Counted from the first letter of the stretch, positions 1,526 through 14,293 are shown. The stretch: 64,000 bases of DNA from an uncultured Candidatus Actinomarina sp. (GCA_902634185.1 CACPJC010000003.1:32369-96368); one strand, 5' to 3'. The notes: generated by a model from the letters alone, not told the origin. Numbers and translations are program-made.

Positions 1526-3145
1526 ATGTCAAAAAATGTATTAGTTTGTGTGGCTTGGCCATATGCAAGCGGGTCAAGACATCTAGGCCATATTGGTGGA
1601 GCATATCTGCCTGCTGATATTTTTGCAAGGTACCACAGAGCTGTTGGTAACAATGTTTTAATGGTGTCAGGAAGCGACGTTCACGGTACCCCAATAACTG
1701 TAAGAGCTGATGCAGAAGGTGTTCAACCAATAGATATAGTCAATAAATATCACAATGAATTTTTGGGGTATTGGGAAAAACTTCGTATTTCTTGGGATAA
1801 CTATACAACAACAATGACTGATAATCATAAAGAAGTTACTCAGGAAATGTTCTTAAAAATAAAAGAGAATGGCTTTATTGAAAAAAATAAAAGTATCCAG
1901 GCTTTTGATCCACAAGAAAAAAAGTTTTTACCTGATAGATATGTAGAGGGTACTTGTCCTTGTCCTGTTGCTTATAGTGAAGCAAGAGGTGACCAATGTG
2001 ATAGCTGTGGTAAAACTCTTGATCCAGAAGAGTTAATAAATCCTATAAGTAAAATATCTGGAAACAAAGCAGAATTTAAAGAGACTGAACATTATTTTTT
2101 AAAGTTAAGTGCTCTAAATGACAGACTTTCTGATTGGTTAAATAGCAAAGAAGGTTGGAGACCTCACGTTATAAACTTTTCTAAATCATTTGTTGAAGAA
2201 GGTCTACAAGATAGAGCTATAACGAGAGATTTAGACTGGGGAATCGACATTCCAGAAAATGAATTAGGTGATGGAAAAAAAATATACGTATGGTTTGAAG
2301 CTGTAATTGGTTATTTATCTGCAGCTAAAGAATGGGCAATAACCAATGGCACACCTGATGCATGGAAAGATTTTTGGATGAATGAGGATGCAGAGTCTTA
2401 TTATTTTGTTGGAAAAGATAATGTTCCTTTTCATGCAATAATATGGCCTGCCATGTTACTTGCATATGGTGATTTGAACCTACCAACAAATGTTCCGGCA
2501 AACCAGTACATATTGATTAAAGGTGAAAAGGCATCTGCAAGTAGGGGTGTTGGAAAAACTTTGAACGATTATCTTGATGAATGGAATCCAGATTCATTAA
2601 GATACGCACTAGCCAGTATCCTGCCAGAGCAAAATGATTCTGAAATCTCTGAAGATGAAATGATTAGACGAAATAACGAAGAACTTGTGGCGGCATGGGG
2701 AAATTTAGTTCAAAGAGTTTTTTCACAATATATAAATAATTTTGAAAAATTAGACTTTGATTTTGAGTTAAATGAAATTGATAAAAAAATAATTGATGAA
2801 GCTAGTGTTTGTTTTGAAAAGACAAGTGAATTAATCGAAAAGGTCGAACTCAAATCATCACTTCAGTCAGTTATGGGATATGTAAATAAAATAAATGCTT
2901 ATCTTAATGAAACAGAACCATGGAAGATAATAAAAGAGGACAACGCCAGAGCAACAGCAATACTACACACATCACTTACAGCAATAGATGCATGTGCATC
3001 ATTATTTACTCCTTTTATGCCGACAACATCTGAGGTTGTAAAAAATGCAATTGAAAAAAATACAAATAATAATTGGTCAGTAAACGACATAAAAAAAGGT
3101 GCCCCTTTAGAAAATATTGGACACCTTTTTAAAAAATTTGATTAG
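1526..3145 (+). CDS. metG: Methionyl-tRNA synthetase (short form, no C-terminal tRNA-binding domain)
   Basis: 539 aa. HIGH-type motif SRHLGHIGG, Zn knuckle CPCP...CDSCG, KMSKS-type KASASRG. Confidence 0.95.
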   Translation: MSKNVLVCVAWPYASGSRHLGHIGGAYLPADIFARYHRAVGNNVLMVSGSDVHGTPITVRADAEGVQPIDIVNKYHNEFLGYWEKLRISWDNYTTTMTDNHKEVTQEMFLKIKENGFIEKNKSIQAFDPQEKKFLPDRYVEGTCPCPVAYSEARGDQCDSCGKTLDPEELINPISKISGNKAEFKETEHYFLKLSALNDRLSDWLNSKEGWRPHVINFSKSFVEEGLQDRAITRDLDWGIDIPENELGDGKKIYVWFEAVIGYLSAAKEWAITNGTPDAWKDFWMNEDAESYYFVGKDNVPFHAIIWPAMLLAYGDLNLPTNVPANQYILIKGEKASASRGVGKTLNDYLDEWNPDSLRYALASILPEQNDSEISEDEMIRRNNEELVAAWGNLVQRVFSQYINNFEKLDFDFELNEIDKKIIDEASVCFEKTSELIEKVELKSSLQSVMGYVNKINAYLNETEPWKIIKEDNARATAILHTSLTAIDACASLFTPFMPTTSEVVKNAIEKNTNNNWSVNDIKKGAPLENIGHLFKKFD

Positions 3146-3528
3146 CTCTTTGTAGCTTGAAATACCTCATCTATTTCATTAATCAAACCTAGAAGTTCCT
3201 CGCCTACAGCAGGATCTTCTGTTTTCTTTGCTTCTCCAGCTTTCTTTGTTGCATTCCAAAAAAGATCATGAACATTTGGAAATTTTTCAAGGTGTTCTGG
3301 CTTGAAATAATCTGTCCACAATACCCATAGATCTTTCTTAACCTCTTCAGCCATATCTTCTTTAATGGTGATGCATCGTTGTTTGAATGCAGCATCATCA
3401 GATTCTTGATATTTTTTGGAGGCATTTACAACTGACTCTGCATTGATTCTTGCTTGTGCAGGATCATAGACACCGCATGGCAAATCACAATGAGCATGAG
3501 CTACTCTTGTTGGTTTAAATAACTTCAT
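3142..3528 (-). CDS. sodN: Nickel superoxide dismutase precursor
   Basis: 128 aa. Pro-peptide MKLFKPTRVAHA is followed by the Ni-hook HCDLPCGVYDP. Confidence 0.95.
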   Translation of the reverse strand: MKLFKPTRVAHAHCDLPCGVYDPAQARINAESVVNASKKYQESDDAAFKQRCITIKEDMAEEVKKDLWVLWTDYFKPEHLEKFPNVHDLFWNATKKAGEAKKTEDPAVGEELLGLINEIDEVFQATKS

Positions 3529-3576: not shown

Positions 3577-4080
3577 ATGATTAAAAGCATTACACGGATA
3601 TTAAATATTAGAAACCTTCTTATCATCGCTGTCTATTTATTTCTAAAAAATAATAAAGATGGAACATATAGAACATATGAAATCAAAGAAGAAAGTATGG
3701 AGCCATCATTACATGAAGGCGATTACGTATTAGCTATAAAAGTTGCAGAACCATTAAATCGAGGTGATATTGTTATTTATGAATATGCTCCAAAAAATAT
3801 TGAAATAATTAAACGAGTCATCGGACTTCCAGGTGAGACTATTTCAAATGAAGATGGGGAGATAAAAGTTGATGGAAAATCAATTAGCGATAGTTGGGGT
3901 AATGGTAAGTCAGCTTCTTTTGAAACTATTACATTGCAGGAAGATGAATTATTTGTATTAGGAGATAATAGAGAAAAATCTTCTAGTGATTCGTCATCTA
4001 TTGGTCCAATTAAAAATGAGGATTGTTGGAAATTAAGATATCTCTATTGGCCCTATCATAAGTTTAAGAGTTATGAATAA
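3577..4080 (+). CDS. sodX: S26 signal-peptidase-like Ni-SOD maturation protease
   Basis: 167 aa. Catalytic Ser box SMEPSL, IKRVIGLPGE and GDNREKSSSDS motifs. Divergent partner of sodN. Confidence 0.85.
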   Translation: MIKSITRILNIRNLLIIAVYLFLKNNKDGTYRTYEIKEESMEPSLHEGDYVLAIKVAEPLNRGDIVIYEYAPKNIEIIKRVIGLPGETISNEDGEIKVDGKSISDSWGNGKSASFETITLQEDELFVLGDNREKSSSDSSSIGPIKNEDCWKLRYLYWPYHKFKSYE

Positions 4081-4261
4081 TTTAGTTTGTACCTGGTGTA
4101 AAAGAGAAATGACCTATCTTCATGGTCATGGAGCTTGTATCAACAATCAATGTCCTATGTTTGGTTTGAACCAAGCTGAATGTTGTGATGGTGAAACTGT
4201 TTCAAACTGTGTTTCACCACAGAAAAATGAAATAACATTATCCCCGCGTGCATTAAACTAG
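4073..4261 (+). CDS. Small Cys/His-rich hypothetical protein (62 aa)
   Basis: Its ATG overlaps the sodX stop (ATGAATAA). Contains CTWC...HGHGACINNQC...CC...C. No family recognised. Confidence 0.35.
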   Translation: MNNLVCTWCKREMTYLHGHGACINNQCPMFGLNQAECCDGETVSNCVSPQKNEITLSPRALN

Positions 4262-4278: not shown

Positions 4279-6969
4279 ATGAGTGAAGAAAAACCTTTAA
4301 ACGTACCTGAATATCTATTGATTAGGTCTGCTGAGGCAAGAGCTAAACATTTAGGTATTTCTGTTGAACAAGCTTTAGCTGAAATCAAGGGAGAAGCTCA
4401 ACCAGTAGTTGAGGAACCTGTAGCTGAAGTTGAAGAACCTGTAGTTGAAGTTGAAGAGCCAGTTGAAGAGGAACCTGTAGCTGAAGTTGAAGAACCTATA
4501 GTTGAAGTTGAAGAGCCAGTTGAAGAACCTGTAGTTGAAGTTGAAGAGCCAGTTGAAGAACCTGTAGTTGAACAAGAACCTTTAGAGGAAGTAAGCATAG
4601 AAAATAAAACTGTTGAGTCTATACCAGCCGTTACCATTCGTTTTGCTGGTGATTCAGGTGATGGTATGCAATTAGTTGGTACTAGATTCACAGACACTTC
4701 TGCTTTATTTGGAAACGACCTTGCTACTTTGCCAGCGTTTCCTGCTGAAATTAGGGCTCCTCAAGGAACAGTTGCAGGTGTATCTTCCTTCCAAGTTCAA
4801 ATTGCTGACTTTGATATTTTGACACCAGGAGATGCCCCTGATGTTTTAGTTGCTATGAACCCTGCTGCTTTGAAAGCTCACCTACAAGATTTAACACCAA
4901 ACGGAATGTTGATATTAAACGAAGATGCTTTTGATGAAAAAAATATTAAAAAAGCAGGTTATGGGATAGATCCTAGAGAATCTGAGGAACTTGATGGATA
5001 TAGAATTTTTCAAGTCCCAATGGAAAAACTAACAAAGGAAGCTTTGGAGGAATTTGATTTACCTGGAAGAGCAGTTTTACGTTCTAAAAATATGATAGCT
5101 CTTGGTTTAATTTCATGGACTTTTAACAGAGATCTAAAAGATACTGAAAATTGGATAAACGAGAAATTCAAAAATCTACCAGAAGTCGCAAAAGCAAACA
5201 TAAAAGCACTCAAGACTGGATACAACTTTGGTATTACAGTTGAGGCATTTCACCATACTTATAAAGTAGATAAGGCCTCATTACCAGCTGGAGAGTATAC
5301 AAATATAAATGGAAATATCGGTTTAAGTTGGGGTCTTATTGCGGGTGCTAAAAAAGCTAATCTCGATCTGTTTTACGGAAGTTATCCTATTACTCCTGCA
5401 TCAGATATATTGCATGAGTTATCAAAACACAAAAATTTCAATGTGTTGACTTTCCAAGCTGAAGATGAAATTGCAGCTGCTGCAGCAGCAGTAGGTGCTT
5501 CCTTTACAGGAAAGCTTGCAGTTACAGGAACCAGTGGACCAGGTCTTGCTCTAAAAAGTGAAACCATATCTTTAGCCCTTTCTGCAGAATTGCCTTTAGT
5601 AGTAGTTAATGTTCAAAGGGGTGGGCCATCAACGGGACTACCTACAAAACCAGAACAGTCTGATCTAATGTTTGCAATGTATGGACGCCATGGAGAGGCT
5701 CCTTTACCAGTAGTTGCAGCTAAATCCCCATCTCATGCTTTCTATGCAGCGTTTGAGGCAACACGTATTGCTCTTAAATATATGACACCCGTTATTTTAT
5801 TGTCAGACAACTATGTTGCTACAGGTTCTGAGCCATGGAAACTACCTGAGATTGAAAACCTTGATGAATTGGGAACAAATTTAACCACGACTTACAACAC
5901 TGAAGATGGGTTTTTACCATTTTTTAGAGATTACGAAACTAATGCTCGACCATGGGCTATTCCTGGAGTACCAGGATTAGAGCATCGTGTAGGTGGATTA
6001 GAAAAAGAAGATGGAACTGGAAATGTTTCTTATGACACTGATAATCACCAATACATGACAGATATGAGAGCATGGAAAATTGAAAATATAGCAAATGATA
6101 TTGACCCACTTGAAATAAATGGAGACATATCATCAGATACTCTCATTTTGGGTTGGGGATCAACTTTTGGTGGTATCACACAAGCTGTAAACAGACTCAA
6201 TTCAAAAGGTGTAAAGGTAGCAAGTGCACACTTCACACACATCAATCCTTTCCCAGACAACACGGCTGAAGTTTTGAGTCAATTTAAAAACATCATTGTC
6301 CCTGAATTAAACACTGGCCAATTGTCAAAACTTTTACGTGCACGTTATCTTGTCGATACTGTCGGAATCAATAAAGTTGAAGGTTTACCTTTTACAGCTC
6401 AAGAATTAGAAGAAAAAATCGAATCTCTCATAAACTCTTTTGGTACAAAACTCGAGCCTATCGTAGAAGAAGTTGTAGCTGAGGAAGAACCTGTAGTTGA
6501 AGAGGTTGTAGAAGAAGTTGTAGCTGAGGAAGAACCTGTAGTTGAAGAGGTTGTAGCTGAGGAAGAACCTGTAGTTGAAGAGGTTGGAATACCAGAACAC
6601 CTCATAATGAGATCTGCTGAAGCACGTGCAAAAGCATTAGGTATACCTGTTGAGCAAGTTTTAGAAGAAATGAGTGCAGATAAACCAGCAGCAGAAACCC
6701 AAGAACCAGTTGTTGAACAAGAACCAGTTCTTGAAGAAGAGCCAGTTGTTGAAGAAGTAAAATCAGATACATCTGAAGAACCAGCAGCAGAAGCTCAAGA
6801 ACCTGTAGTAGAGAGAGTTGTCGAAAGGGTCACTGAAAGAGTGACTGAGAGAATTATTGAAAAAGTTGATGAGAATATGCCTGAGAATAAAGAACTTGTT
6901 CAAGACATTGATGAAGAAAGAAACAAGGTAGAGGAAGAGAAAAAAGAGGAAGTAAAGACTGATGAGTAA
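4279..6969 (+). CDS. korA: 2-oxoglutarate:ferredoxin oxidoreductase alpha (gamma-alpha fused) subunit with N- and C-terminal extensions
   Basis: 896 aa. The core (~4600..6440) has FAGDSGDGMQLVG and GSYPITPASD motifs. The termini carry a duplicated module plus acidic repeats. Confidence 0.9.
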   Translation: MSEEKPLNVPEYLLIRSAEARAKHLGISVEQALAEIKGEAQPVVEEPVAEVEEPVVEVEEPVEEEPVAEVEEPIVEVEEPVEEPVVEVEEPVEEPVVEQEPLEEVSIENKTVESIPAVTIRFAGDSGDGMQLVGTRFTDTSALFGNDLATLPAFPAEIRAPQGTVAGVSSFQVQIADFDILTPGDAPDVLVAMNPAALKAHLQDLTPNGMLILNEDAFDEKNIKKAGYGIDPRESEELDGYRIFQVPMEKLTKEALEEFDLPGRAVLRSKNMIALGLISWTFNRDLKDTENWINEKFKNLPEVAKANIKALKTGYNFGITVEAFHHTYKVDKASLPAGEYTNINGNIGLSWGLIAGAKKANLDLFYGSYPITPASDILHELSKHKNFNVLTFQAEDEIAAAAAAVGASFTGKLAVTGTSGPGLALKSETISLALSAELPLVVVNVQRGGPSTGLPTKPEQSDLMFAMYGRHGEAPLPVVAAKSPSHAFYAAFEATRIALKYMTPVILLSDNYVATGSEPWKLPEIENLDELGTNLTTTYNTEDGFLPFFRDYETNARPWAIPGVPGLEHRVGGLEKEDGTGNVSYDTDNHQYMTDMRAWKIENIANDIDPLEINGDISSDTLILGWGSTFGGITQAVNRLNSKGVKVASAHFTHINPFPDNTAEVLSQFKNIIVPELNTGQLSKLLRARYLVDTVGINKVEGLPFTAQELEEKIESLINSFGTKLEPIVEEVVAEEEPVVEEVVEEVVAEEEPVVEEVVAEEEPVVEEVGIPEHLIMRSAEARAKALGIPVEQVLEEMSADKPAAETQEPVVEQEPVLEEEPVVEEVKSDTSEEPAAEAQEPVVERVVERVTERVTERIIEKVDENMPENKELVQDIDEERNKVEEEKKEEVKTDE
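4306..4392 (+). repeat. KorA terminal module, copy 1 (PEYLLIRSAEARAKHLGISVEQALAEIKG)
   Basis: Paralogous to 6592..6678 at both protein and nucleotide level. Confidence 0.8.
4393..4590 (+). repeat. In-frame acidic tandem repeats (EEPVAEVEEPVVEVEEPVE)n
   Basis: A ~57-nt unit gaggaacctgtagctgaagttgaagaacctgtagttgaagttgaagagccagttgaa is repeated, followed by a shorter 33-nt unit. Confidence 0.9.
6455..6591 (+). repeat. In-frame acidic tandem repeats (EEVVAEEEPVVEEVV)n
   Basis: gttgtagctgaggaagaacctgtagttgaagaggtt occurs three times. Confidence 0.9.
6592..6678 (+). repeat. KorA terminal module, copy 2 (PEHLIMRSAEARAKALGIPVEQVLEEMSA)
   Basis: Paralogous to 4306..4392. It is followed by a further Glu/Pro/Val-rich tail to 6966. 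Confidence 0.8.
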
Positions 6970-7978
6970 AATTCCTCTCTCATATAAAAGAGCTGACTTT
7001 GCTAGTGACCAAGAGGTTAAATGGTGCCCTGGATGTGGTGATTATACAATTCTTGCTTCAGTGCAAAACTTTATGACTGAATTAGGTATCAGAAAAGAAA
7101 ATATTGTGTTTGTATCTGGCATTGGTTGTGCAGCAAGATTTCCTTACTACATGAACACATACGGTTTACATTCTATCCATGGTCGTGCTCCTGCAGTAGC
7201 TACTGGAGTAAGTGCATCTAACCCAGATCTTTCAGTTTGGGTAGTATCTGGAGATGGTGACGCACTATCTATTGGAGGAAACCACTTAATTCATGCACTA
7301 AGAAGAAATGTAAATATGAAGATTTTAATGTTCAATAATCAAATATATGGACTTACCAAAGGACAGTATTCCCCTACCAGTGAAGAAGGAAAGAAAACAA
7401 AATCTTCTCCCTTTGGTTCTGTAGAGCTTCCACTAAACCCAATGAGTTTAGCCTTAGGAGCTGAGGCATCATTTGTTGCAAGGTCAATTGATATGGATAG
7501 AGATCTTACAGCAGAGGTACTTCGAGCAGCATCTGAACATGAGGGCTCAGCTTATGTTGAGATTTATCAAAACTGTAACGTTTTTAATGACAAAGCCTTT
7601 GAGCAGTTAACTTCAAAGGAAGGAAAAATAGCAAATCGTATAAATCTAAAACATGGTGAGAAAGTTATCTTTGGAGCAGAAGATGAAAATGCTGTAACAA
7701 TTCGTGATGGAGAAGCGGTCATAGTCAAAAGATCTGAAATAGATGATAGTGAGATTTATGTTCATGACATTACAAAAGATAACCCTTCAATTGCTTTTTC
7801 ATTATCAAGATTATCTCATGGGCCTTATGGGCCAACGCCAGTAGGTATCTTTAGACAAGTTGAAAGAGATACTTACAATGATGAAGTCAGAGAACAAATT
7901 GACTCATCTATTGAGCAAAAAGGTGAAGGAGAACTTGATAAGCTTATTCGTTCTTTAGGAACTTGGGAAGTTAACTAA
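6962..7978 (+). CDS. korB: 2-oxoglutarate:ferredoxin oxidoreductase beta (TPP-binding) subunit
   Basis: 338 aa. CPGCGDY and GDGD...GGNH TPP motifs. Its start overlaps the korA stop. Confidence 0.93.
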   Translation: MSKIPLSYKRADFASDQEVKWCPGCGDYTILASVQNFMTELGIRKENIVFVSGIGCAARFPYYMNTYGLHSIHGRAPAVATGVSASNPDLSVWVVSGDGDALSIGGNHLIHALRRNVNMKILMFNNQIYGLTKGQYSPTSEEGKKTKSSPFGSVELPLNPMSLALGAEASFVARSIDMDRDLTAEVLRAASEHEGSAYVEIYQNCNVFNDKAFEQLTSKEGKIANRINLKHGEKVIFGAEDENAVTIRDGEAVIVKRSEIDDSEIYVHDITKDNPSIAFSLSRLSHGPYGPTPVGIFRQVERDTYNDEVREQIDSSIEQKGEGELDKLIRSLGTWEVN

Positions 7979-12316: not shown

Positions 12317-14293
12317 TTATTTGTTTAACTTCTCTTGGATATTGTAGTTTCCATCTAATTTTTTCCATGTTCCATCATTTTTTAACGTCCATGAATACTT
12401 GTCAGACTTTATATATTTTTCTAAGAGACTACTGAGTTTCTTTTTTATTATCGGGCTTTTTATAGGTACTAATACTTCAATTCTATGTCTTAAGTTTCTT
12501 TGCATTAAATCTGCAGACCCTATATATATTTTTTCTATATCTGATTTTCCAAATTTATATATTCTTGAGTGTTCTAAAAAAGGACCAAGTATAGAAATAA
12601 CATTTATATTTTTAATTGGTATGAGACAACAAATTCCCCTTACTATAATATTTATCTGATTACCTGCATTAGCCGCATCATATAATTTTTGTATGATTAA
12701 TGGATCAGTAAGATTATTCAATTTTAAAACAATTTTTCCTTCTTCTCCTAAATCTATTTGTTCTTCAATTAATGAGTTAATATTTTTCTCTAAAGACTCA
12801 GGGGCTACTAGCAACTCATCAAGATTTTCTCTATCAGCATAAGCAGTTAACGAATTAAAAACTATTCCACAATCATTACCAATACTTTTATCAGATGTGA
12901 AAATGCCAATATCCTCATATCCCTTTGATGTTAAAACATTGTAATTACCTGTTCCAAAGTGCATATATGGTACTAATTCATTATTTTCTTCACGAACAAC
13001 TAAAATCATTTTGGTATGAGCTTTATATCTTGGATCTCCATACGTAACATGAACACCTGATTCTTCTAAGTATTCAGCATTCGAGATGTTTTGCTCTTCA
13101 TCGAACCGTGCTCTCAATTCAACTAAAACAGCAACTTGTTTACCTCCTCTCGCTGCACTTGCTAATAGGGATGTTATCTTATCGTTTTCAGCAGTTAAAC
13201 CAGTTCTATATTGTGTCATTTTTATGGCACGTACATATGGATCAAAACATGCTTTTTCTAAAAATCGCAAAACTGTTTTCTCAAATGAATCATAAGGATG
13301 ATGTACCATCACATCATTATTTTTAATAATTTCAAACATATCATTGCTAAATTCAAATTCAGTCTCATGTAATTTCCAACTTGTAGAAAATTCGATATGG
13401 TCTATCAAAGAATTAATTTGAAATCTAGTAAGTGGGTCCTTTAATTCTACTTGAAGGTCATAATCTATTTCTAAATTATTTTTTAAGTATTTTTGAGTTG
13501 TTACTGAAACTCCCTCTTGGATTTCTAATCTTACAATTTTTCCTAATTTTCTATTTTCTAATCCCTCTTTTACAACTTCCAGAAAATTTCGCTTTAAACT
13601 TGCTCTAAATTCTAAATCTGCATCACGAGTTGTTCTAAACCAAAACTTTTCAATAACTGTGTGTGGAAAAAACAGTTTATCAATATAGTGAAGAACCAAT
13701 TCATGTATCCATACAAGTTGTTCCTTATTTAAATTTAAAAATGAACCTAAACTTGCTGGGATTTTTATACGTATAAATTGATTATCTTCAAATTCGTTTT
13801 TGATGACTACGCCGATAGACAATGATAAATCAGAAATGTATGGAAATGGATGTGTAGGGTCTGCAGCCAAGGGAGTAAGGAGGGGTTTTATATTGTTATC
13901 AAAATAATCTTCTAAGATATCAAGCTCAGATTCAGTGAGGTCTTTCATCCTCTTAAAATTTACACCATGCTTTTCTAGATCTTTTACAAAATATTCTTTC
14001 CAAACTGTGTTTCTATTTATCATCTCCTTTTTAGCTTCTTCAAGAATATCTTTAAAATATACAAATGTTTCTTTCGAAATTGAAACATCCAGCTTTTGAT
14101 TAATAGTCTCGTAAACTTTTTCAAGCAATCCAGAAATTCGAATCTGAAAAAACTCATCTAAATTAGAATGTGTTATACCGAATAAAAATAAACGATCCTT
14201 GAAAGGAACACTGCTATCTTTTGATAAAGTTAATACTCTTTTGTTGAACTCTAACCAGGATGATTCACGATCAAGAAGATCTATATCTGTCAT
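12317..14293 (-). CDS. ppk1: Polyphosphate kinase 1
   Basis: 658 aa. N-terminal RESSWLEFNKRVL motif typical of PPK1, plus two PLD-like C-terminal domains. Confidence 0.93.
   Translation of the reverse strand: MTDIDLLDRESSWLEFNKRVLTLSKDSSVPFKDRLFLFGITHSNLDEFFQIRISGLLEKVYETINQKLDVSISKETFVYFKDILEEAKKEMINRNTVWKEYFVKDLEKHGVNFKRMKDLTESELDILEDYFDNNIKPLLTPLAADPTHPFPYISDLSLSIGVVIKNEFEDNQFIRIKIPASLGSFLNLNKEQLVWIHELVLHYIDKLFFPHTVIEKFWFRTTRDADLEFRASLKRNFLEVVKEGLENRKLGKIVRLEIQEGVSVTTQKYLKNNLEIDYDLQVELKDPLTRFQINSLIDHIEFSTSWKLHETEFEFSNDMFEIIKNNDVMVHHPYDSFEKTVLRFLEKACFDPYVRAIKMTQYRTGLTAENDKITSLLASAARGGKQVAVLVELRARFDEEQNISNAEYLEESGVHVTYGDPRYKAHTKMILVVREENNELVPYMHFGTGNYNVLTSKGYEDIGIFTSDKSIGNDCGIVFNSLTAYADRENLDELLVAPESLEKNINSLIEEQIDLGEEGKIVLKLNNLTDPLIIQKLYDAANAGNQINIIVRGICCLIPIKNINVISILGPFLEHSRIYKFGKSDIEKIYIGSADLMQRNLRHRIEVLVPIKSPIIKKKLSSLLEKYIKSDKYSWTLKNDGTWKKLDGNYNIQEKLNK

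What the first reader, a model, noticed from the sequence alone, without database searches (positions are those of the whole stretch)
4279..6969. KorA bracketed by a duplicated ~29-aa helical module and long acidic EEPV repeats
Seen: PEYLLIRSAEARAKHLGISVEQALAEIKG (4306..4392) and PEHLIMRSAEARAKALGIPVEQVLEEMSA (6592..6678) are clear paralogues, one at each end of a normal KorA core. Each adjoins tandem Glu/Pro/Val repeats (4393..4590, 6455..6591, 6679..6966), so the protein is 896 aa. Mycobacterial KorA is ~650 aa, a figure from memory and therefore approximate. The module looks like a helix-loop-helix; any HeH or SAP resemblance is only a weak impression. I recognise no family. Inference: these may be flexible acidic arms carrying a docking module, for example for a basic ferredoxin partner, for oligomerisation, or for nucleic-acid or polyP contact.
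Basis: partly seen in the sequence, partly recalled or inferred. Interest (0 to 1): 0.55.

Follow-up and report, generated by a model that had tools for sequence, protein, structure and literature searches.

The report
KorA with borrowed respiratory-chain docking modules
In one clade of the abundant marine bacterium Candidatus Actinomarina, a TCA-cycle enzyme subunit (KorA) carries at each end, on long floppy acidic tethers, a small conserved two-helix module that otherwise sits on the cytoplasmic tails of respiratory-chain membrane proteins across the class Acidimicrobiia; this hints, without proving it, that the enzyme is physically tied into the respiratory machinery.

Summary
ORF 4279..6969 is an 896-aa KorA. 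It has a normal core (aa ~106-725), two paralogous ~30-aa modules (aa 10-38 and 770-800) and Glu/Val/Pro tandem-repeat linkers.

New here: the module is not private to KorA. It belongs to an unannotated family, with no Pfam, NCBIfam or PDB match, that is found almost only in Acidimicrobiia:
- It forms the constant N-terminus of the PetD-like cytochrome b C-terminal subunit (116 of 119 homologues).
- A diverged three-helix form sits on the cytoplasmic tails of membrane-anchored c-type cytochromes.
- A small membrane subunit carries up to 7 copies.

Only one monophyletic Actinomarina clade put it on KorA; the sister clade has a plain 616-aa KorA at the same locus. Linker lengths vary between near-identical strains, but the modules are as constrained as the catalytic core (dN/dS 0.025-0.04). 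AlphaFold2 predicts a helix-loop-helix hairpin on disordered tethers.

Best reading is a tethered protein-docking module that places KorAB in the interaction network of the Fer4-containing Rieske/cytochrome b complex and the cbb3-like oxidase. The partner is unknown and the function is inferred. I rate it a new variant of a known kind, interest about 0.6.

The parts
4279..6969 (+). korA, 896-aa 2-oxoacid:ferredoxin oxidoreductase alpha subunit with N- and C-terminal extensions (end includes the stop codon)
   Evidence: ORF listing. TIGR03710 scores 647.8 bits, and Pfam finds POR, POR_N and PFOR_II. The closest solved homologue, 6n2n_A, covers only aa 119-715.
4306..4392 (+). N-terminal b-type module (aa 10-38), a helix-loop-helix
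   Evidence: H11-25, H29-36. It is 73% identical to the N-terminus of the Actinomarina cytochrome b C-terminal subunit, E=5e-17. dN/dS is 0.025, equal to the core.
4393..4593 (+). N-linker (aa 39-105): Glu/Val/Pro tandem repeats, net charge -29, predicted disordered
   Evidence: TRF arrays at 4407-4572. Composition. pLDDT ~25 with no secondary structure. The N-extension is 76-123 aa long among relatives whose cores are 97.7-99.7% identical.
4594..6453 (+). Catalytic KorA core (aa 106-725)
   Evidence: It is 86-87% identical to the 616-aa orthologues that lack the extensions.
6454..6585 (+). C-linker 1 (aa 726-769): EEVV/EEPVV repeats, net charge -20
   Evidence: TRF arrays at 6463-6586.
6586..6678 (+). 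C-terminal b-type module (aa 770-800)
   Evidence: H773-787, H791-799. The isolated AlphaFold2 model has pLDDT 83-91. It is invariant in close relatives. dN/dS is ~0.04 against L088 at saturated dS.
6679..6804 (+). C-linker 2 (aa 801-842): acidic Q/E-P-V repeats
   Evidence: TRF array at 6700-6757.
6805..6864 (+). (V[VT]ER)n tail, VVERVVERVTERVTERIIEK (aa 843-862); predicted helix at low confidence
   Evidence: Invariant in the clade, also present in P0016, and found only in KorA among all fetched sequences. AlphaFold2 predicts H845-862. TRF array at 6823-6852.
6865..6966 (+). Charged C-terminal end (aa 863-896)
   Evidence: H868-890, low confidence. dN/dS for the tail is ~0.1.
6962..7978 (+). 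korB, the beta subunit (TPP-binding, Cys motif); overlaps korA by 8 nt
   Evidence: Pfam TPP_enzyme_C, E=7e-30. TIGR02177 scores 255.4 bits, just below its cutoff of 261.9.

Best explanation
The gene encodes a normal KorA. Together with KorB it forms a two-subunit 2-oxoacid:ferredoxin oxidoreductase.

In one clade of Candidatus Actinomarina this KorA has gained, at each end, a copy of a ~30-residue helix-loop-helix module on a disordered polyacidic tether.

The module is the 'b-type' member of an undescribed family. In Acidimicrobiia this family forms the cytoplasmic N-terminus of the PetD-like cytochrome b C-terminal subunit. A diverged 'c-type' form sits on the cytoplasmic tails of membrane-anchored c-type cytochromes next to a cbb3-like oxidase. 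Multi-copy arrays sit on a small membrane subunit of the same gene cluster.

I read the module as a tethered protein-protein docking domain (sticker on a spacer), working on the principle of the peripheral-subunit-binding domain of 2-oxoacid dehydrogenase E2 chains. On KorA the two arms would hold soluble KorAB in the interaction network at the cytoplasmic face of the Fer4-containing Rieske/cytochrome b complex and the oxidase. They would do this either by binding other modules or by binding the partner that those modules bind.

Shown: the anatomy, the distribution, a single gain, purifying selection on the module, free variation of the linkers, and the predicted fold.
Inferred: that the module docks proteins, the identity of its partner, and co-localisation with the respiratory chain.
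For: - Family and hosts. An exhaustive profile search finds 179 cluster representatives, with up to 7 copies per protein separated by Pro/Ala/Glu linkers. The hosts are Cytochrom_B_C, Cytochrom_C/Cytochrome_CBB3 and FixO proteins, and the module lies N-terminal to the first TM helix, so it is cytoplasmic. This topology follows from the known orientation of subunit IV and of N-anchored cytochromes c.
- Taxonomy. A genome scan finds at least 253 loci, nearly all Acidimicrobiia or Actinomarina. Among the 80 fetched, about 60 have the module on the cytochrome b C-terminal subunit, usually with a second module on a divergently encoded cytochrome c. KorA carries it in 10 Actinomarina species genomes.
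- Constancy. 116 of 119 cytochrome b C-terminal subunit homologues start with the module.
- Subtype. The KorA copies are b-type at all five diagnostic positions. The KorA N-module is 73% identical to the Actinomarina cytochrome b C-terminal subunit N-terminus.
- Single gain. Extension-bearing KorAs are monophyletic and lie at the same syntenic locus as the 616-aa form.
- Selection. dN/dS is 0.025 for the N-module and 0.025 for the core. It is ~0.04 for the C-module and 0.047 for the adjacent core. Linkers change length by repeat units between strains whose cores are more than 97% identical.
- Fold. A helix-loop-helix with pLDDT 83-91 on linkers with pLDDT ~25.
- Possible second interface. Helix 1 has Ala conserved at over 90% at positions 13, 15 and 17 and at 78% at position 19 (i/i+4 pairs 13/17 and 15/19). 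That puts Ala on two faces, as expected if it packs against helix 2 and also against a second surface (inference).
- Context. A 2x[4Fe-4S] ferredoxin-type gene precedes cytochrome b in 52 of 52 loci. Actinomarina is reported to lack OGDH E1 (bioRxiv 10.64898/2026.04.03.716425), so KorAB is probably its only 2-oxoglutarate-oxidising step.
Against: - No partner has been identified, and no interaction was computed or measured.
- The full-length AlphaFold2 model is poor (mean pLDDT 47.6) and cannot show docking.
- The very abundant sister clade works without the arms, so they are dispensable for catalysis.
- A 28-residue hairpin may not be stable on its own.
- A cytoplasmic tail on periplasmic cytochromes has no obvious need for a TCA enzyme nearby.
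Confidence: 0.45

Rival explanations
1. Ferredoxin-capture arms. The b-type module binds a ferredoxin-type protein, either the Fer4 protein encoded next to cytochrome b or a soluble ferredoxin. On KorA the two tethered copies raise the local acceptor concentration for an enzyme that has no built-in ferredoxin domain. On the cytochrome b C-terminal subunit the same module holds the Fer4 protein at the n-side of the complex.
For: - KorAB-type enzymes carry a single [4Fe-4S] cluster and, as the abstract of PMC5020499 begins to state (listing truncated) and as I recall, lack an intramolecular ferredoxin domain (PMC5020499, listed).
- A Fer4 gene lies directly upstream of cytochrome b in 52 of 52 loci.
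- The b-type module occurs only on cytochrome b C-terminal subunits and on KorA.
Against: - The Fer4 protein is acidic (pI 4.6) and would be repelled by arms carrying a net charge of about -74.
- It does not explain the related modules on cytochrome c and FixO tails, or the 3-7-copy arrays on the small membrane subunit.
- No ferredoxin gene lies near korAB in the window.
Confidence: 0.2
2. Self-association only. The N- and C-modules pair with each other, within or between KorA chains, as a four-helix bundle. This would stabilise the (alpha-beta)2 enzyme or build higher-order KorAB assemblies, with no link to the membrane complexes.
For: - Two-helix hairpins commonly dimerise (general knowledge).
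- Ala is conserved on two faces of helix 1.
- There are two copies per chain.
Against: - P0016-type KorA keeps only the N-module.
- The same module is single-copy on most cytochrome b C-terminal subunits.
- Nothing here tested pairing.
Confidence: 0.12
3. Largely neutral or generic low-complexity elaboration. Slippage-prone acidic repeats act at most as solubility or 'entropic bristle' tails, and the module is a passenger from a domain-shuffling event.
For: - Linker length is polymorphic between near-identical strains.
- The extensions are absent in the much more abundant 616-aa sister clade.
- The repeats are near-perfect at the DNA level.
Against: - The modules are invariant in close relatives, and their dN/dS of 0.025-0.04 equals that of the catalytic core even at dS above 1.4.
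- The arms are retained across the whole clade, down to 87.5% core identity.
- The module family is conserved class-wide.
Confidence: 0.12
4. HTH-derived nucleic-acid binding. The module tethers its hosts to DNA or RNA.
For: The three-helix variants in other Acidimicrobiia proteins collect weak Pfam HTH matches. For P0122, Xre-like-HTH gives a whole-protein E=7e-10, but no single stretch is significant. HTH_23 and HTH_31 also appear.
Against: - The KorA copies lack the first helix and match no HTH family at E<=1.
- The module is net neutral, KorA has net charge -99, and the arms are polyanionic.
- The hosts are membrane redox proteins.
Confidence: 0.05

Closest known systems
Two-subunit 2-oxoacid:ferredoxin oxidoreductases (KorAB of Mycobacterium tuberculosis; Magnetococcus OGOR, PDB 6N2N/6N2O; Sulfolobus tokodaii OFOR, PDB 5B46)
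   Same: The core (aa ~106-725) has the POR, POR_N and PFOR_II domains and passes TIGR03710. A beta subunit with the TPP_enzyme_C domain lies downstream. 6n2n_A aligns to aa 119-715 with E=3e-70.
   Different: None of the five solved homologues with E<=1e-10 has a best-scoring match extending beyond aa 119-719 of the query, so none covers the extensions. The nearest orthologues, 616-622 aa and 78-87% identical, lack them. The two modules, three polyacidic linkers and the (VxER)n tail are additions of about 275 residues.
Peripheral-subunit-binding domain (PSBD, Pfam E3_binding PF02817) on Ala/Pro-rich linkers of 2-oxoacid dehydrogenase E2 chains
   Same: It works on the same principle: a very small (~30-35 aa) two-helix domain on long flexible Pro-rich linkers of a 2-oxoacid-oxidising enzyme, serving as a docking site (established knowledge of E2 architecture; an analogy only).
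HeH / SAP / LEM / Rho_N helix-extended-loop-helix motifs
   Same: Two short helices joined at a conserved Gly, often on disordered tethers.
   Different: No Pfam hit to SAP, HeH, LEM or Rho_N for the window copies or for the 46 multi-module proteins. The loop is 3 residues rather than extended. Charge and context argue against DNA binding.
Xre-like / HTH_23-type helix-turn-helix domains
   Same: The three-helix c-type and repeat-array variants (SLEEAAAALGMPEKLLRRS...) resemble helix 2-turn-helix 3 of HTH domains. As arrays they exceed Pfam's whole-sequence cutoff for PF20432.
   Different: No single repeat is significant. The KorA copies lack the first helix and give no HTH hit. At best this points to a distant evolutionary origin.
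bc1-cbb3 respiratory supercomplexes (Rhodobacter, Pseudomonas)
   Same: A Rieske/cytochrome b complex functionally coupled to a cbb3-type oxidase through membrane-anchored c-cytochromes (PMC7876108 and PMC10556555, listed). In Actinomarina the two gene sets are adjacent and divergent.
   Different: To my knowledge those supercomplexes have no cytoplasmic tethered modules and no attached TCA enzyme. Whether the Acidimicrobiia complexes form a supercomplex is untested.

Membership tests
2-oxoacid:acceptor oxidoreductase alpha subunit (KorA; NCBIfam TIGR03710 OAFO_sf) | Full-length match to the family model above its curated cutoff | tested here: met
   647.8 bits against a cutoff of 482.75; aa 118-714 match profile positions 2-561 of 561.
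2-oxoacid:acceptor oxidoreductase alpha subunit (KorA; NCBIfam TIGR03710 OAFO_sf) | Domain set POR (gamma-like), POR_N (TPP-binding) and PFOR_II | tested here: met
   POR E=3e-26 and POR_N E=1e-49. PFOR_II scores 25.9 bits, just under its cutoff of 27.
2-oxoacid:acceptor oxidoreductase alpha subunit (KorA; NCBIfam TIGR03710 OAFO_sf) | Adjacent beta subunit with the TPP C-terminal domain and Cys ligands for one [4Fe-4S] cluster | tested here: met
   korB at 6962..7978 has TPP_enzyme_C (E=7e-30) and a CPGCG motif visible in the translation. TIGR02177 scores 255.4 bits, marginally below its cutoff of 261.9.
2-oxoacid:acceptor oxidoreductase alpha subunit (KorA; NCBIfam TIGR03710 OAFO_sf) | Specificity for 2-oxoglutarate and use of ferredoxin as acceptor | not testable with these tools
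   The TIGR03710 subfamily model does not discriminate substrate. The 2-oxoglutarate role is inferred from source annotations and from the reported absence of OGDH E1 in Actinomarina.
Acidimicrobiia respiratory-tail module (undescribed family defined here) | Match to the consensus [IVM]-P-E-x-L-[LV]-x-R-S-A-E-A-[RK]-A-K-A-x-G-x-[SP]-V-[ED]-x-V-L-A-E-[MW]-x-G | tested here: met
   The window copies seeded the profile, so that match is circular. The independent check is KorA aa 7-43 against the N-terminus of the Actinomarina cytochrome b C-terminal subunit: 73% identity, E=5e-17. Family logo.
Acidimicrobiia respiratory-tail module (undescribed family defined here) | b-type diagnostic residues K18, L20, Q26, M/I31, K32 (c-type has E/Q18, S20, E26, W31, A32) | tested here: met
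   The 9 KorA copies in the fetched loci are 9/9 K18, L20 and Q26, with I or M at position 31 in all nine and K32 in 8 of 9. The window's own two copies show the same residues by inspection of their sequences, except that the C-terminal copy has S at position 32.
Acidimicrobiia respiratory-tail module (undescribed family defined here) | Cytoplasmic location on a Pro-rich flexible tether | tested here: met
   KorA is a soluble cytoplasmic enzyme. The linkers are E/V/P-rich with pLDDT ~25. In membrane hosts the module precedes the first TM helix.
Peripheral-subunit-binding domain (Pfam PF02817 E3_binding) | Sequence match to the family profile | tested here: not met
   No PF02817 hit at E<=1 for the window modules, nor at E<=0.01 among 46 module-bearing proteins.
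Peripheral-subunit-binding domain (Pfam PF02817 E3_binding) | PSBD fold | tested here: inconclusive
SAP / HeH / LEM / Rho_N | Sequence match to any of these Pfam families | tested here: not met
   No hits.
Helix-turn-helix (Xre-like-HTH PF20432) | Significant match of an individual module, with three helices | tested here: not met
   The KorA copies give no hit and are predicted to have two helices. Only repeat arrays in other proteins sum to a significant whole-protein score, with no significant stretch.

The most novel reading that the evidence does not exclude
KorAB is physically docked, through its b-type modules, to the Fer4-bearing Rieske/cytochrome b complex, and through b-type/c-type module pairing to the cbb3-like oxidase. 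Electrons from 2-oxoglutarate oxidation would then pass through a ferredoxin-type Fe-S subunit directly into the membrane complex. That would be a ferredoxin-to-quinone/cytochrome b route in an aerobic, genome-streamlined marine bacterium. The module family would be a general sticker-and-spacer system that organises the Acidimicrobiia respiratory chain at the cytoplasmic face.
Probability: 0.1. Interest if true: 0.85.

Novelty: new variant of a known kind. Interest (0 to 1): 0.6.

Why it matters
Candidatus Actinomarina is among the most abundant bacteria in the surface ocean and is reported to lack 2-oxoglutarate dehydrogenase E1. KorAB is therefore probably its only route from 2-oxoglutarate to succinyl-CoA, and how the reduced ferredoxin is re-oxidised in an aerobe is an open question.

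Finding the same selectively maintained module on KorA and on the cytoplasmic tails of bc-complex and oxidase subunits gives a concrete, testable hypothesis for a physical link between a TCA enzyme and the respiratory chain.

It also defines an unannotated domain family that marks thousands of Acidimicrobiia respiratory proteins. Sources currently call these proteins 'hypothetical', or mislabel fragments as 'TonB'.

If the module proves to be only a generic tail, the result is still a clean example of domain shuffling plus repeat-driven linker evolution.

Tried and rejected
- **Solved structures by sequence.** A PDB search with the module profile hit only designed repeat proteins and a 13-residue coincidence in V-ATPase subunit C.
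- **Full-length AlphaFold2.** The shallow alignment (21 sequences, all at least 77% identical) gave mean pLDDT 47.6. I used the model only for the secondary structure and disorder of the extensions, not for docking.
- **Word-indexed search with the module alignment.** It needed at least 40 aa and then returned only fragments of 83 aa or less. These proved to be frameshift- or contig-truncated N-termini of cytochrome b C-terminal subunit or KorA genes.
- **Genome scan.** It failed with the diverse alignment and worked with the closer one.
- **Small Cys-rich ORF as a co-acquired partner.** The ORF at 4073..4261 is upstream of korA in every extension-bearing locus. It also accompanies a 621-aa KorA without arms (L087). 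It is degenerate in the 616-aa clade (L082) and absent in L085. It is therefore ancestral and not linked to the module, and I rejected it.
- **Alternative internal start.** A start that would skip the N-extension is ruled out because no start codon is present there.
- **A second soluble host.** P0265 (module plus an N-terminally truncated short-chain dehydrogenase) looks like a chimera. P0244 also looks chimeric.
- **Literature.** Motif strings found nothing. No paper was found describing the module or KorA extensions. 'Actinomarina, resolved' does not mention ferredoxin or cytochromes.
- **Basic ferredoxin idea.** The Fer4 candidate is acidic.
Full report
**1. The observation**

The window is low in GC (about 0.24-0.43 over the first 12 kb profiled; 0.34-0.43 across korA). 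It carries an 896-aa ORF at 4279..6969 (+), followed with an 8-nt overlap by a 338-aa ORF at 6962..7978.

The long ORF is a 2-oxoacid:acceptor oxidoreductase alpha subunit. TIGR03710 scores 647.8 bits against a cutoff of 482.75 over aa 118-714, and Pfam finds POR, POR_N and PFOR_II. The downstream ORF is the beta subunit (TPP_enzyme_C, E=7e-30). The closest solved structure, Magnetococcus OGOR 6n2n_A, aligns only to aa 119-715.

They share 19/29 residues and 62/87 nt. They find each other in a tblastn of the whole window at E=8e-9, and nothing else scores better than E=0.4.

Tandem Repeats Finder reports near-perfect arrays at 4407-4572, 6463-6586, 6700-6757 and 6823-6852.

The N-extension cannot be an annotation artefact. 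Where the 616-aa orthologues begin (MSIENK...), the window reads ...GAA GTA AGC ATA GAA..., with no start codon.

**2. Variation among relatives**

A search with the whole protein and inspection of the hits show three tiers.
- Relatives whose cores are 97.7-99.7% identical are 838-902 aa long. They carry both modules without a single substitution in the module proper. Their linkers differ by whole repeat units: the N-extension is 76-123 aa and the C-extension 146-193 aa.
- Deeper members keep both modules (P0015, 856 aa) or only the N-module plus the acidic C-linker and the (VxER)n tail (P0016, 755 aa).
- A very populous sister clade (clusters of up to 816 members) is 616 aa long, 86-87% identical in the core, and has no extension at all.

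A neighbour-joining tree of the cores places all extension-bearing proteins in one clade. That clade is sister to the 616-aa clade, with 621-622-aa proteins outside. The locus is syntenic in both forms: ammonium transporter, MetRS, Ni-SOD, S26 peptidase, korA, korB, NAPRTase. The arms are therefore a single in-situ gain.

**3. Selection**

I computed Nei-Gojobori estimates on codon alignments.
- Against L004 and L089 (dS ~0.48), the N-module has dN/dS 0.025. The catalytic core also has 0.025.
- Against the more distant L088 (pS 0.70, saturated), the C-module has dN/dS ~0.04. The adjacent core has 0.047.
- The C-terminal tail runs at about 0.1.

The modules are as constrained as the enzyme, while linker length drifts freely. 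This is the signature of a functional domain on a flexible tether.

**4. What the module is**

No Pfam or NCBIfam model matches it (E<=1 and E<=0.1), and no PDB sequence matches meaningfully.

**5. The module is shared with respiratory-chain proteins**

An exhaustive profile search of 1.84 billion cluster representatives found 179 proteins at E<=1e-3, with up to seven copies in one chain separated by Pro/Ala/Glu-rich spacers.

The hosts are of four kinds:
- three-TM proteins with the PxWY motif and Pfam Cytochrom_B_C (the PetD-like C-terminal half of a split cytochrome b);
- single-TM monohaem c-type cytochromes;
- FixO-like proteins;
- a small membrane protein.

In every case the modules lie N-terminal to the first TM helix. 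Given the known topology of subunit IV and of N-anchored cytochromes c, that places them in the cytoplasm. This is consistent with their presence on soluble KorA.

A scan of one genome per GTDB species found at least 253 loci, almost all labelled Acidimicrobiia, Actinomarinales, Candidatus Actinomarina or OCS155. Of the 80 fetched, about 60 have the module at the N-terminus of the cytochrome b C-terminal subunit, usually with a second module on a c-type cytochrome encoded about 3.4 kb away on the other strand. Ten Actinomarina genomes have it on KorA. Some single-cell genomes have both, for example AG-913-F10 with L003 (KorA) and L044 (cytochrome b).

Of 119 homologues of the cytochrome b C-terminal subunit, 116 begin with the module at residue 2-3. 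The other three are N-terminally truncated calls. Sources annotate only PF00032 in these proteins.

**6. Gene context in Actinomarina (L001, L015)**

One operon reads: a 197-aa membrane protein, a 2x[4Fe-4S] ferredoxin-type protein, cytochrome b (N-terminal half), [module-linker-cytochrome b C-terminal half], Rieske protein, a dihaem cytochrome c, and a 122-aa membrane protein. Divergently transcribed are a COX1-like haem-copper oxidase subunit, a FixO-like cytochrome and a further cytochrome c, and both cytochromes carry N-terminal modules.

The 122-aa protein is the homologue (46% identity, E=1e-30) of the membrane domain of P0125 and P0121, which carry three and seven modules in other Acidimicrobiia.

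The ferredoxin-type gene sits immediately upstream of cytochrome b in all 52 loci that hold enough upstream DNA.

**7. Two subtypes**

Modules on cytochrome b C-terminal subunits ('b-type') have K18, L20, Q26, M31 and K32. Modules on c-type cytochromes ('c-type') have E/Q18, S20, E26, W31 and A32, plus an extra upstream helix (KVAEIL.AP...).

The KorA copies in the fetched loci are b-type at the diagnostic positions. The window's two copies show the same residues by inspection, except that its C-terminal copy has S rather than K at position 32. The KorA N-module is 73% identical to the Actinomarina cytochrome b C-terminal subunit N-terminus (E=5e-17). KorA therefore most likely obtained its modules by domain shuffling from the cytochrome b gene lineage.

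Three-helix repeat arrays in other proteins collect weak HTH matches. For P0122, Xre-like-HTH gives a whole-protein E=7e-10 with no single significant stretch. This hints at a distant HTH origin. The KorA copies have only two helices and give no HTH hit.

**8. Mechanism**

*Shown:* a small, autonomously predicted helical hairpin. It is strongly conserved: P5, L8, R11, S12, A13, A15, A17, G21, L28 and G33 each exceed 85%. It sits on disordered tethers of unconstrained length. It is always cytoplasmic, often multivalent, and restricted to energy-metabolism proteins of one bacterial class.

*Inferred:* it is a docking module. The conserved Ala residues fall on two faces of helix 1 (i/i+4 pairs 13/17 and 15/19). 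This suggests that the helix packs against helix 2 and also against a second surface.

The charge differences between the b- and c-types (K versus E/Q at position 18, Q versus E at position 26, K versus A at position 32) would be compatible with heterotypic b:c pairing. This is only a lead.

On this reading the armed KorAB, with four modules per (alpha-beta)2 enzyme, is drawn into the same network as the Rieske/cytochrome b complex and the oxidase. The constant ferredoxin-type gene in the cytochrome b operon, together with the reported absence of OGDH E1 in Actinomarina, makes a link between ferredoxin-reducing KorAB and this complex attractive. It is unproven. I put 0.45 on tethered docking into the respiratory-chain network.

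Rivals:

| Rival | Confidence | Main objection |
|---|---|---|
| Ferredoxin capture | 0.20 | The Fer4 candidate is acidic, pI 4.6, and the arms carry about -74 net charge |
| KorA self-association only | 0.12 | P0016-type KorA keeps only one module |
| Essentially neutral or generic solubility tails | 0.12 | Contradicted by the selection data |
| Nucleic-acid binding | 0.05 | KorA net charge is -99 |

**9. Comparison with known systems**

The enzyme core is an ordinary member of the KorA/OFOR family.

The arms work most like the PSBD-on-Ala/Pro-linker arrangement of 2-oxoacid dehydrogenase E2 chains. Membership of the PSBD family fails at the sequence level and is untestable by fold at this size. 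SAP, HeH, LEM and Rho_N also fail.

bc1-cbb3 supercomplexes are known in Proteobacteria (papers listed), but to my knowledge they have no cytoplasmic modules.

I found no description of the module, or of extended KorA, in the searchable literature. That is a limited search and not proof of absence.

**10. Verdict**

The finding is a new variant of a known enzyme that carries an undescribed, class-wide module family. The function of the module remains inferred. Interest 0.6.

Noticed in passing
window 4073..4261 (+): A 62-aa Cys-rich ORF (7 Cys, 2 His; MNNLVCTWCKREMTYLHGHGACINNQCPMFGLNQAECCDGETVSNC...). It overlaps the end of the S26 peptidase gene and lies just upstream of korA, and has no Pfam match. 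It is conserved (70-100% identity) in all extension-bearing loci and in L087 (a 621-aa KorA). It is degenerate in the 616-aa clade (L082) and absent in L085. It may be a small metal-binding protein, and it is not linked to the module.
   Followed up: partly
L008-L081 (e.g. L015 2734..3201): A 2x[4Fe-4S] ferredoxin-type ORF (~150 aa, acidic, no TM helix) lies directly upstream of the split cytochrome b genes in 52 of 52 Acidimicrobiia loci. This suggests a Rieske/cytochrome b complex with a cytoplasmic Fe-S subunit.
   Followed up: partly
window 6583..6690 versus L004 and L089: The C-module shows only 1 synonymous difference in 36 codons (dS 0.04), while the flanking core, the N-module and the tail have dS 0.36-0.51 in the same comparisons. 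Possible causes are a recent recombination tract or a constraint at the nucleotide level. Against the more distant L088, synonymous sites are saturated as expected.
   Followed up: partly
window 6805..6864 (+): A four-residue-periodic tail, VVERVVERVTERVTERIIEK. It is invariant in the clade, also present in P0016 (which lacks the C-module), and found only in KorA among all fetched sequences. AlphaFold2 predicts a helix at low confidence, and its role is unknown.
   Followed up: partly
window 37921..46932 (-): A giant 3002-aa ORF with a C-terminal Sortase domain (E=1.6e-29, aa 2874-2993) and weak repeat-type matches (Reelin subrepeat B, CHB_HEX_C, BNR). A sortase fused to a giant, presumably surface, protein is unusual.
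   Followed up: no
window 4398..4697 (-): A 99-aa antisense ORF made of SSTG/SSTS repeats. It is the reverse-frame image of the EEPV repeat DNA, not a gene.
   Followed up: yes
L037, L062, L065, L066, L073, L079: MAG contigs labelled Gammaproteobacteria, Acidobacteriota or Boseongicola carry the same Acidimicrobiia-type Fer4 - cytochrome b - module gene cluster. These are probably binning or labelling errors.
   Followed up: no
P0265, P0244: One protein joins a hybrid b/c-type module and an acidic linker to a short-chain dehydrogenase that lacks its first ~90 profile positions. Another joins 24 module residues to unrelated sequence. Both are probably assembly chimeras. If the first is real, it would be a second soluble host.
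   Followed up: partly
L001 6001..6776; L003 3980..6717: In long-read and single-cell assemblies, module-bearing genes are often split by frameshifts inside the repeat linkers. This produces many 40-85-aa 'proteins' in public databases, one of them named 'energy transducer TonB'.
   Followed up: yes
window 3142..3528 (-), 3577..4080 (+), 12317..14293 (-): A Ni-superoxide dismutase (sodN) with an adjacent S26-type peptidase sits immediately upstream of korAB. The peptidase is called a signal peptidase I and matches the NiSOD maturation protease model only weakly. A polyphosphate kinase lies 5 kb downstream.
   Followed up: no
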